64,000 nucleotides of DNA from the human T2T-CHM13v2.0 reference genome, Homo sapiens: assembly GCF_009914755.1 (NCBI RefSeq), contig NC_060933.1; one strand, given 5' to 3'. Within the stretch, counting starts at the first letter, position 1; every line of letters starts with the position of its first letter. Shown piece after piece: positions 7,318 to 7,875 of the stretch. Under the pieces are notes generated by a model. That model did not search any database. It saw only the letters and a program-made list of their open reading frames with translations, and was not told the DNA's origin. Made by a program: the position numbers and the translations under genes.

Positions 7318-7346
7318 AACTAGGGTATCTGATGGAAGAAATTTCT

Positions 7347-7790
7347 TTTCTTTTTTTCCTTTCTTTACATTATTTTATTGAGATGATGCAAAATTATATA
7401 TGTTAATTTTAGGAATATCCAACAATTGGACAACTCATTGATAAACTGGTACAAAACAATGTGTTATTGATCTTCGCCGTAACCCAAGAACAAGTTCATT
7501 TATATGAGGTAAGCAAAAAAAACTTGGGAAATTCCTTCAAGGAGATTATGTGACATGAAACTTTAACATTAACTCTGTGAGTTTAACACATGGGAAGGCC
7601 ATTAGATAATCATTAACACATACCAAATGTACTGGGTGCTTGGCTAAGTGGACTCATTTACTGCTTGTAATTTAAATTGTAAACACCAAGGTGCAGTAGG
7701 GTGTGGGGAGCAGATAAGGTGGGATGAGAAAGACTGAGCTAAGGAAATGAAACAGATATGCTGGAGGAGAGTATCAACAAATATAGGACC
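7347..7790 (-). mobile_element. Retrotransposed non-repeat segment (antisense copy of ITGB6 intron-exon-intron) with A-tail and TSD
   Basis: TSD aagaaatttct at 7336-7346 and 7791-7801; T-rich tract 7347-7366 is the minus-strand tail; tttatt 7374-7379 is minus-strand AATAAA; MST-int resumes seamlessly after it. Confidence 0.88.
7413..7508 (+). pseudogene. ITGB6: Isolated duplicated exon of integrin beta-6 (beta-I/vWA domain), 96 nt, phase 0/0, intact AG and GTAAG sites
   Basis: ttttag|GAA TAT CCA ACA ATT GGA ... TTA TAT GAG|gtaagc translates to [32 protein letters not shown], recognised as ITGB6; no other ITGB6 exon seen in the window. Confidence 0.9.
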
Positions 7791-7875
7791 AAGAAATTTC
7801 TAAGCAAAATACAGAAAGGTTTGCATGGCTTATTTTCACTGCATACAGTAAAATGAGAGAGGAGAGAAATAATTT

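What the first reader, a model, noticed from the sequence alone, without database searches (positions are those of the whole stretch)
7336..7801. Orphan ITGB6 exon with both splice sites, retrotransposed in antisense: an exon-shuffling cassette
Seen: a 444-bp non-repeat insert interrupts MST-int between exact 11-bp repeats (aagaaatttct). The empty site gaagaaatttctaagc matches the related THE1-int in this window (minus strand, ~40354-40370) and reads TTTCT/AA, close to the L1 endonuclease consensus TTTT/AA. The minus strand ends in AATAAA plus an A-rich tail. The plus strand holds ttttag|96 nt|gtaagc, stop-free, encoding [32 protein letters not shown]. Knowledge: this peptide is from the integrin beta-6 beta-I domain, and trans-mobilised exon-plus-intron fragments are known for ATM and CFTR. 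Inference: an antisense RNA across ITGB6 (or an orphan 3' transduction from an intronic L1) was copied by L1 machinery, so intron flanks were kept, unlike a processed pseudogene. The exon is symmetric (phase 0/0, 32 codons), so it could splice in-frame into a plus-strand host transcript. It could also confound ITGB6 exome variant calls.
Basis: partly seen in the sequence, partly recalled or inferred. Interest (0 to 1): 0.92.

Follow-up and report, generated by a model that had tools for sequence, protein, structure and literature searches.

The report
Stray retro-copied ITGB6 exon on chr9
A 434-base piece of the integrin beta-6 gene (one whole exon with parts of both neighbouring introns) was copied long ago, through a backwards-running RNA, from chromosome 2 into a gene-free stretch of chromosome 9, where it appears to be an inert relic of a rare but already described kind.

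Summary
An exact 11-nt direct repeat (7336-7346, 7791-7801) brackets a 444-nt insert. In the window's own genome the insert has one other place, C2:160626414-160626847 on the minus strand, 97% identical and colinear. That place continues a colinear series of integrin-beta exons. The 32 codons at 7413-7508 match solved integrin beta-6 chains 32 of 32, and identity stops at the GT donor.

On the minus strand the copy ends with AATAAA, 18 nt, then a 9-nt A-rich tail absent from the donor. The nick site reads TTCT/AA. In 12 of 12 paralogous copies of the host repeat the 11-mer occurs once at that site.

So L1 machinery copied an antisense, polyadenylated RNA. Divergence of 3.1% (13 of 423) suggests an insertion in an ape ancestor, by recalled rates.

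A full-length L1 lies in the right orientation 14.3 kb upstream in the donor intron, so orphan 3' transduction is possible but disfavoured.

No gene is annotated within 100 kb, so "exon-shuffling cassette" is potential only. This is a new member of a known kind, of low to moderate interest. No primate genomes were on hand.

The parts
7336..7346 (.). Left copy of the 11-nt target-site duplication AAGAAATTTCT
   Evidence: Exact direct repeat D3. It abuts the T-rich end of the insert (A-rich on the minus strand).
7347..7355 (-). Remnant poly(A) tail, 9 nt (8 A and 1 G on the minus strand), absent from the donor
   Evidence: Homology to C2 ends at 7356. The donor continues with unrelated sequence (alignment A2).
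7356..7789 (-). Retro-copied ITGB6 segment. The RNA template sense is the window's minus strand; the ITGB6 coding sense is the plus strand. It equals C2:160626414-160626847.
   Evidence: 97% identity, query 10-443 of 444. 420 of 435 identities with 1 gap. 13 differences in 423 ungapped columns.
7374..7379 (-). AATAAA polyadenylation signal of the antisense RNA. It lies 18 nt before the tail here and 22 nt before the end of homology in the donor, which has a 4-nt indel.
   Evidence: Read. It is conserved in the donor.
7356..7412 (+). 57 nt of the upstream ITGB6 intron, ending in the ttttag acceptor
   Evidence: Aligned to the donor. An in-frame TAG lies immediately before the exon.
7413..7508 (+). 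Complete 96-nt ITGB6 exon, 32 codons, phase 0/0. It matches residues 308-339 of the 788-residue PDB chain 4um8_B.
   Evidence: It has two differences from the donor exon, both synonymous and both at CpG sites.
7509..7789 (+). 281 nt of the downstream ITGB6 intron, beginning with the gtaagc donor
   Evidence: Aligned to the donor. Protein identity stops at the GT: VSKK here against NYAK in the protein.
7790..7790 (.). One extra base (c) at the 5' junction, matching neither the donor nor the repeat
   Evidence: BLAST homology ends at 7789 and the repeat starts at 7791.
7791..7801 (.). Right copy of the target-site duplication. With 7802-7803 (aa) the plus strand reads TTCT/AA at the inferred first-strand nick.
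   Evidence: The L1 endonuclease preference TTTT/AA is established knowledge, recalled here.
7321..7346 (+). Host repeat remnant left of the insert (MaLR-internal-like)
   Evidence: 26 nt, 96% identical to window 40383-40358. It matches 12 of 12 paralogues.
7802..7807 (+). Host repeat remnant right of the insert. Only 14-17 nt of the right flank, counting the repeat, match the paralogues.
40354..40383 (-). Paralogous, uninterrupted copy of the target site within the same window

Best explanation
An RNA was transcribed antisense through the ITGB6 gene on chromosome 2. It was cleaved and polyadenylated about 20 nt after an AATAAA that lies, on the antisense strand, in the intron upstream of this exon.

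L1 proteins then captured this RNA in trans. L1 endonuclease nicked a TTCT/AA site inside an old MaLR-type repeat on chromosome 9. The poly(A) tail annealed there and was reverse-transcribed (target-primed reverse transcription). Either only the last 434 nt of the RNA were copied, or that was all the RNA there was. Repair of the staggered second-strand cut produced the 11-nt duplication.

Because the template was unspliced and antisense, the copy carries the whole 96-nt exon with both splice sites and parts of both introns. The coding sense lies on the window's plus strand.

The copy is an inert relic, inserted roughly in an ape ancestor. The exon is still intact because few mutations have struck it, not because it is used.

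Shown: the donor, colinearity, orientation, the untemplated tail, the duplication, and a single-copy target in paralogues.

Inferred: that L1 proteins did the copying, the promoter of the antisense RNA (unknown), 5' truncation, the date, and the lack of function.
For: - The insert has only two places in the whole assembly. The second is inside a colinear integrin-beta exon series on C2.
- The peptide matches integrin beta-6 32 of 32, and identity stops exactly at the splice donor.
- Homology runs from 7356 to 7789 without rearrangement, 420 of 435 identities.
- On the minus strand AATAAA is followed, 18 nt later, by 9 A-rich nt that the donor lacks.
- An exact 11-nt duplication sits at the ends of the insert.
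- The nick site reads TTCT/AA.
- The left and right flanks map onto 12 of 12 paralogous host-repeat copies with exactly 11 nt of overlap, so the target was single-copy before insertion. The host family has at least 470 candidate copies, of which 40 were scored.
- Exon and flanks diverge alike: 2 of 96 against 11 of 327, Fisher p = 0.74. This gives no sign of constraint on the chr9 copy.
- No gene is annotated in the window or within 100 kb (hub annotation).
Against: - The tail is only 9 nt and contains a G. That is short, though expected for an old insert.
- The orthologous empty site in other primates was not examined, because no primate genome was available. The empty-site evidence therefore comes from paralogues only, and only about 32 nt of the chr9 flanks align to them.
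- No transcript data were available to show that an antisense RNA with this poly(A) site exists.
- Both exon differences are synonymous. This is compatible with neutrality, since both are CpG transitions, but two sites cannot exclude constraint.
- A full-length L1 in the matching orientation lies in the same intron region, which keeps the transduction variant alive.
Confidence: 0.78

Rival explanations
1. Orphan L1 3' transduction in cis. The template was a read-through transcript started at the promoter of the full-length L1 that lies antisense in the ITGB6 intron region (C2: about 160605965-160612064). It ran past the L1's own poly(A) site and was polyadenylated 14.8 kb further on. Severe 5' truncation during reverse transcription left only the last 434 nt.
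For: - An L1 on the C2 plus strand, the same sense as the template RNA, has the following features.
- Its 5' end carries the recalled L1 5' start motif with 1 mismatch at L018:1051-1075.
- It has Pfam hits for ORF1 (Tnp_22_dsRBD 6.4e-45, Transposase_22 4e-29), endonuclease (3.9e-8) and reverse transcriptase (1.6e-16). These lay in 3 of the 7 frames tested; a fourth frame gave only weak, sub-cut-off matches, one of them to the L1 ORF1 trimerisation domain, and the other 3 matched nothing.
- Its 3' end is at L003: about 5150.
- Orphan transductions are an established outcome of L1 activity (passages read in PMC7058536).
Against: - The fragment starts 14,349 nt after the L1's 3' end. There are 11 AATAAA and 3 ATTAAA hexamers on that strand in between.
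- From recall, germline transductions are mostly under a few kb.
- The L1's 5' UTR is only 87-90% identical to the best 39 other copies scored (7,024 candidates, 40 scored), and its ORF2 is split into many frames. It is therefore an old element that was probably already disabled when the copy was made.
- No sibling copies of the segment exist.
- A probe made from this L1 found no further L1 between it and the fragment.
Confidence: 0.14
2. DNA-level event without reverse transcription: a small duplicative transposition, or a patch captured during double-strand-break repair.
For: Short unique-sequence patches can be captured at breaks (general knowledge, recalled). The A tail is short.
Against: - One end of the copied segment falls about 20 nt after an AATAAA, on the strand that then carries untemplated A's.
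- There is an exact 11-nt duplication.
- The nick site fits L1 endonuclease.
- The piece is 434 nt, far below segmental-duplication size.

All four together are the signature of target-primed reverse transcription.
Confidence: 0.03
3. The copy is functional: the exon is spliced into an unannotated plus-strand chr9 transcript, or the piece acts as a regulatory element, and is preserved for that reason.
For: - Both splice sites and the open 32-codon frame are intact.
- The frame is phase 0/0.
- Both exon differences are synonymous.
Against: - No gene is annotated in the window or within 100 kb, and the only RefSeq functional element is an enhancer 40 kb away (hub annotation).
- Exon divergence (2 of 96) does not differ from flank divergence (11 of 327), p = 0.74.
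- Both exon changes are CpG transitions, the commonest neutral change. At 3% divergence an intact 96-nt frame is the expected outcome.
Confidence: 0.03

Closest known systems
[quoted passage not shown] I saw only its title in reference lists, and the paper is not held. The details of the ATM case are recalled.
   Same: A unique genomic segment with an exon and intron flanks is moved to another chromosome. It carries a poly(A) end and a target-site duplication, and no L1 sequence is attached.
   Different: The gene (ITGB6) and the target (a chr9 gene desert) are different. Whether the published cases share the antisense orientation and the size could not be checked here.
CFTR exon 9 copies dispersed in the human genome (Rozmahel et al., Genomics 1997). 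I saw the title in reference lists only; the details are recalled.
   Same: An exon with flanking intron sequence is found outside its gene and is a known nuisance for diagnostics. A paper on that diagnostic effect, El-Seedy et al. 2009, was seen by title in the reference list.
   Different: The CFTR pieces are amplified to many sites. Here there is exactly one copy besides the gene.
Orphan L1 3' transduction (passages read in PMC7058536; the Solyom et al. 2012 title seen in the reference list)
   Same: Unique DNA without any L1 sequence, inserted with the hallmarks of target-primed reverse transcription. A full-length L1 lies upstream in the right orientation.
   Different: The source L1 lies 14.3 kb away rather than immediately upstream, with 14 poly(A) hexamers between, and it is old.
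Processed pseudogene (retrocopy of a spliced mRNA)
   Same: The same L1 machinery, poly(A) tail and target-site duplication.
   Different: The template was antisense and unspliced. Introns are retained on both sides of a single exon, and no other ITGB6 exon is present.

Membership tests
L1-mediated (target-primed reverse transcription) insertion of a cellular RNA | Target-site duplication of about 7-20 nt flanking the insert | tested here: met
   Exact 11-nt repeat at 7336-7346 and 7791-7801, at the ends of the insert.
L1-mediated (target-primed reverse transcription) insertion of a cellular RNA | 3' A-rich tail not encoded at the donor locus | tested here: met
   A 9-nt A-rich stretch (one G) at 7355-7347 on the minus strand. 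The donor continues with unrelated sequence. The tail is short.
L1-mediated (target-primed reverse transcription) insertion of a cellular RNA | Polyadenylation signal 10-30 nt before the tail, present in the donor | tested here: met
   AATAAA at 7379-7374 on the minus strand, conserved in C2. It lies 18 nt (chr9) and 22 nt (donor) before the end of homology.
L1-mediated (target-primed reverse transcription) insertion of a cellular RNA | Nick site resembling TTTT/AA | tested here: met
   The plus strand reads TTCT/AA at 7798-7803. The consensus is recalled.
L1-mediated (target-primed reverse transcription) insertion of a cellular RNA | A colinear source locus elsewhere in the genome | tested here: met
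   C2:160626414-160626847, 97% identity, the only other place in the assembly.
L1-mediated (target-primed reverse transcription) insertion of a cellular RNA | Empty orthologous site in species that diverged before the insertion | not testable with these tools
   No primate genome is held (one search states that G000 has no relatives here). As a surrogate, 12 of 12 paralogous repeat copies have the 11-mer once.
Processed pseudogene | Introns removed, and sense orientation relative to the tail | tested here: not met
   57 nt and 281 nt of intron flank the exon, and the tail is on the antisense strand.
Orphan L1 3' transduction | A source L1 in the same orientation upstream of the transduced segment | tested here: met
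   An L1 of about 6.1 kb on the C2 plus strand, with 5' motif, ORF1, endonuclease, reverse transcriptase and 3' end.
Orphan L1 3' transduction | The segment lies close downstream of the L1, reached by bypassing its poly(A) signal | tested here: inconclusive
   The gap is 14,349 nt with 11 AATAAA and 3 ATTAAA hexamers. This is possible but far beyond the usual range as I recall it.
Orphan L1 3' transduction | The source L1 was transcriptionally or retrotranspositionally active at the time | not testable with these tools
   Indirect evidence only. Its 5' UTR is 87-90% identical to the best other copies and its ORF2 is fragmented. This suggests an old element.
Exon shuffling (a realised case) | The exon is spliced into a host transcript at the new locus | not testable with these tools
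   No gene is annotated in the window or within 100 kb (hub annotation). No RNA data were available.
Segmental duplication | A DNA-level copy of at least 1 kb without retrotransposition hallmarks | tested here: not met
   434 nt, with a target-site duplication and a tail.
   - The family has at least 470 candidate copies.
- No repeat library was available to name the subfamily.
- Only about 32 nt at chr9 align to the paralogues.

The most novel reading that the evidence does not exclude
The intact, splice-competent, phase-0/0 ITGB6 exon on chr9 is actually used. It would be spliced into an unannotated plus-strand transcript in some tissue, making this a caught-in-the-act case of L1-driven exon shuffling. 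A second, separate reading is that the copy records a roughly 15-kb germline read-through from the intronic full-length L1, an unusually long orphan transduction.
Probability: 0.04. Interest if true: 0.6.

Novelty: new member of a known kind. Interest (0 to 1): 0.3.

Why it matters
1. It is a clean worked example of L1 machinery moving an exon together with its splice sites, through an antisense unspliced RNA. This is the raw material that retrotransposon-mediated exon shuffling needs. Here it landed in a gene desert and shows no sign of use.

2. It records that an antisense, polyadenylated transcript once crossed this part of ITGB6 in the germline or early embryo.

3. It has a practical side. 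The copy is 97% identical to the ITGB6 exon and its flanks, and the longest identical run is 100 nt (7521-7620). The stretch from 7367 up to the first exon difference at 7460 is also identical. Short reads or PCR products from chr9 could therefore be taken for ITGB6. They would mimic two synonymous changes in this exon. ITGB6 is sequenced for amelogenesis imperfecta; the title of PMC13115778 was seen in the listing.

I found no report of this particular copy. The searches were made, over open-access full text only. Subscription journals and pseudogene or self-alignment tracks were not searchable.

Tried and rejected
- One search aligned the donor in the wrong orientation and was useless. It was repeated correctly.
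- Twin priming or a sense pre-mRNA template was rejected. There is no A run at the 7790 end and no sense-oriented part.
- Internal priming on the A-rich antisense stretch, without true polyadenylation, was rejected. The 9 tail bases are not in the donor.
- Copying in the direction chr9 to chr2 was rejected. The C2 copy sits in a colinear exon series, and the tail and duplication are on chr9.
- Sibling copies: none. The insert has 2 places in all, self and donor.
- A probe made from the donor-region L1 (L003:1-5150) found no further L1 in the 14.3 kb up to the fragment, nor in L005, at E of 1e-5 or better. Older, diverged L1 pieces would be missed. By eye and recall, one seems to follow the L1 at L003:5150-5290.
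- The repeat finder found no terminal inverted repeat for the element at about 6985-7320, only one internal 14-nt pair. My impression that it is a DNA-transposon remnant rests on recall.
- The exact-match scan for the recalled LTR motif hit only 3 of 17 loci. Allowing 2 mismatches gave the 8 of 12 layout.
- Literature: Ejima & Yang 2003 and El-Seedy 2009 are not held. The search for an ITGB6 antisense gene name returned 3 papers, none of which holds 'ITGB6-AS1' or 'ITGB6 antisense'. I guess, without opening them, that they matched 'ITGB6-as...' through words such as 'ITGB6-associated'.

Full report
**What is there**

The plus strand of the window reads ...gatgg AAGAAATTTCT tttcttttt... at 7336-7355 and ...ataggac c AAGAAATTTCT aagc... 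at 7781-7805. The repeat finder reports the 11-mer as an exact two-copy family at 7336-7346 and 7791-7801. The bases just outside the two copies differ, so the repeat is exactly 11 nt and encloses 444 nt (7347-7790).

Within the insert, ttttag precedes and gtaagc follows a stop-free stretch of 96 nt (7413-7508). This stretch translates to [32 protein letters not shown].

**Identity of the insert**

A search of the window's own assembly with the 444 nt found two places only. One is the window itself. The other is C2:160626414-160626847 on the minus strand, 97% identical over query positions 10-443.

A pairwise BLAST gave 420 of 435 identities with one gap and no rearrangement. In the 423 ungapped columns 7367-7789 there are 13 differences: 10 transitions and 3 transversions, 3 of them at CpG sites. 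The K2P distance is 0.0315.

A scan of the whole assembly with Pfam Integrin_beta (PF00362) gave 33 matches. On C2 there are four colinear minus-strand matches, covering profile positions 2-74, 70-126, 127-179 and 179-226. The last is the donor segment. On C9 the only match is the one in this window. So the donor is an exon of an integrin-beta gene, and the chr9 copy is an orphan.

The Protein Data Bank search names the gene. The 8 best rows are integrin beta-6 at E 1.5e-15 to 8.3e-15, with 32 of 32 identities in both printed alignments. Beta-8 follows at 4.4e-5. I then read on into the intron, using 46 codons. Identity ends exactly at the last exon codon: VSKK in the window against NYAK in the protein. 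An in-frame TAG forms the acceptor. Both differences from the donor exon (7460 and 7478) are synonymous CpG transitions, and both exons translate identically.

**How it got there**

Read on the minus strand, the insert ends ...CTCAATAAAATAATGTAAAGAAAGGAA AAAAAGAAA | AGAAATTTCTT. The donor shares the AATAAA and the bases up to GGAA, with a 4-nt indel that gives the donor a second AATAAA. The donor then continues with unrelated sequence (alignment A2). The nine A-rich bases at 7355-7347 are therefore untemplated. They begin 18 nt (chr9) or 22 nt (donor) after the hexamer, which is the usual distance for cleavage and polyadenylation.

The tail abuts one copy of the duplication. On the other side, the plus strand reads TTCT/AA at the inferred first-strand nick (7798-7803). 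This is a common variant of the L1 endonuclease site TTTT/AA, which I recall rather than tested. One extra base (7790) sits at the 5' junction.

Four features together are the signature of target-primed reverse transcription of a polyadenylated RNA: an untemplated A tail after a poly(A) signal, an 11-nt duplication, an endonuclease-type nick site, and a unique colinear source on another chromosome. The tail is on the strand opposite to the ITGB6 coding sense, and intron sequence flanks the exon on both sides (57 and 281 nt). The template was therefore an unspliced antisense RNA, not ITGB6 mRNA or pre-mRNA.

**The empty site**

No primate genome could be searched, so I used paralogues.

- The 26 nt left of the insert (7321-7346) match window 40383-40358 at 96%. 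There the sequence runs straight on into AAGCAA, as on the right of the insert.
- A 101-nt query around that site found a dispersed family in the assembly, with 470 first-look candidates, of which 40 were scored and all matched.
- In all 12 loci fetched (one of them the window's own copy), the left flank and the right flank map to the same place with exactly 11 nt of overlap. The 11-mer was therefore single before the insertion.
- Only 14-17 nt of the right flank match the paralogues, so the host remnant at chr9 is short or badly decayed.
- In the 12 loci, a recalled LTR-start motif (2 mismatches or fewer) lies 1.16-1.19 kb downstream of the site in 8 of 12, and 0.66-0.88 kb upstream in 8 of 12. 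The subfamily name stays unverified.

**Where the RNA came from**

BLAST of 30 kb of donor context against the window's own repeats showed an L1 3' end at L003:3509-5148 on the C2 plus strand. It is 91.9% identical to the window's L1 at 5134-6780.

Upstream frames carry L1 ORF1 domains (6.4e-45 and 4e-29), an endonuclease domain (3.9e-8) and a reverse-transcriptase domain (1.6e-16). These lay in 3 of the 7 frames tested. A fourth frame gave only weak, sub-cut-off matches, one of them to the L1 ORF1 trimerisation domain, and the other 3 had no match. A recalled L1 5' start motif matches with one mismatch at L018:1051-1075.

The element is thus full length, about 6.1 kb (C2:160605965-160612064), and it points the same way as the template RNA. 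Three points weigh against it as the source:

- Its 3' end lies 14,349 nt before the start of the copied segment.
- There are 11 AATAAA and 3 ATTAAA hexamers on that strand in between.
- Its 5' UTR is only 87-90% identical to the best other copies scored, and its ORF2 is broken into many frames. It looks older than the insertion.

An orphan 3' transduction is a recognised outcome (PMC7058536, passages read) and cannot be excluded. It would require an exceptionally long read-through. I put it at about 0.14, against 0.78 for an antisense RNA of other origin mobilised in trans. The promoter of that RNA is unknown.

**Age**

At 3.1% divergence between the copies (Poisson range 1.6-5.3%), the split is comparable to the human-orangutan distance as I recall it, about 3%. 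I infer an insertion in an ape ancestor. This should be tested on orthologous sites.

**Function**

The hub's annotation lists no gene in the window or within 100 kb. The exon diverges no more slowly than its flanks: 2 of 96 against 11 of 327, p = 0.74. At this divergence an intact 96-nt frame is what neutrality predicts. The 'exon-shuffling cassette' is therefore a potential, not an observation.

The practical point has some weight. The longest identical run is 100 nt (7521-7620). The exon and its acceptor side are identical from 7367 up to the first exon difference at 7460.

**Comparison with what is known**

The class is in print: Ejima & Yang 2003 for trans-mobilised genomic DNA with an exon, and Rozmahel et al. 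1997 for CFTR exon 9. I saw only their titles in reference lists. The first is not held, so their details are recalled.

Three searches for an ITGB6-specific report found nothing relevant by title or abstract. These cover open-access full text only.

**Verdict**

It is a new member of a known kind and is probably inert. Interest 0.3.

Noticed in passing
L018:1051 to L003:5150 (C2:160605965-160612064, plus strand): A full-length but decayed L1 of about 6.1 kb lies antisense within the ITGB6 intron region, 14.3 kb from the copied exon. It has ORF1, endonuclease and reverse-transcriptase domains but many broken frames. Its 5' UTR is 87-90% identical to the best other copies.
   Followed up: partly
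window 7363-7367 / donor L002 about 1915-1925: There is a 4-nt indel next to the antisense poly(A) site. The donor carries a second AATAAA only about 8 nt before the end of homology, and the chr9 copy lacks it. Which state is ancestral is unknown.
   Followed up: no
window 5129-6813 (plus strand): A 5'-truncated L1 3' end with an A-rich tail at about 6790-6810, 0.5 kb left of the finding. It is 91.9% identical to the donor-region L1.
   Followed up: partly
window about 6985-7320: A repeat of about 340 nt sits directly left of the host-repeat remnant. By recall it looks like a DNA-transposon (MITE-like) remnant. The tool found only one internal 14-nt inverted pair (7113-7126 / 7181-7194) and no terminal inverted repeats.
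   Followed up: partly
window 8414-8460: A (GT)n microsatellite of about 23 units.
   Followed up: no
window 7802-8300: After the first 6 nt, the right flank of the insert does not align to the MaLR-like paralogues. Either the host element is deleted here or another repeat begins. It was not identified.
   Followed up: no
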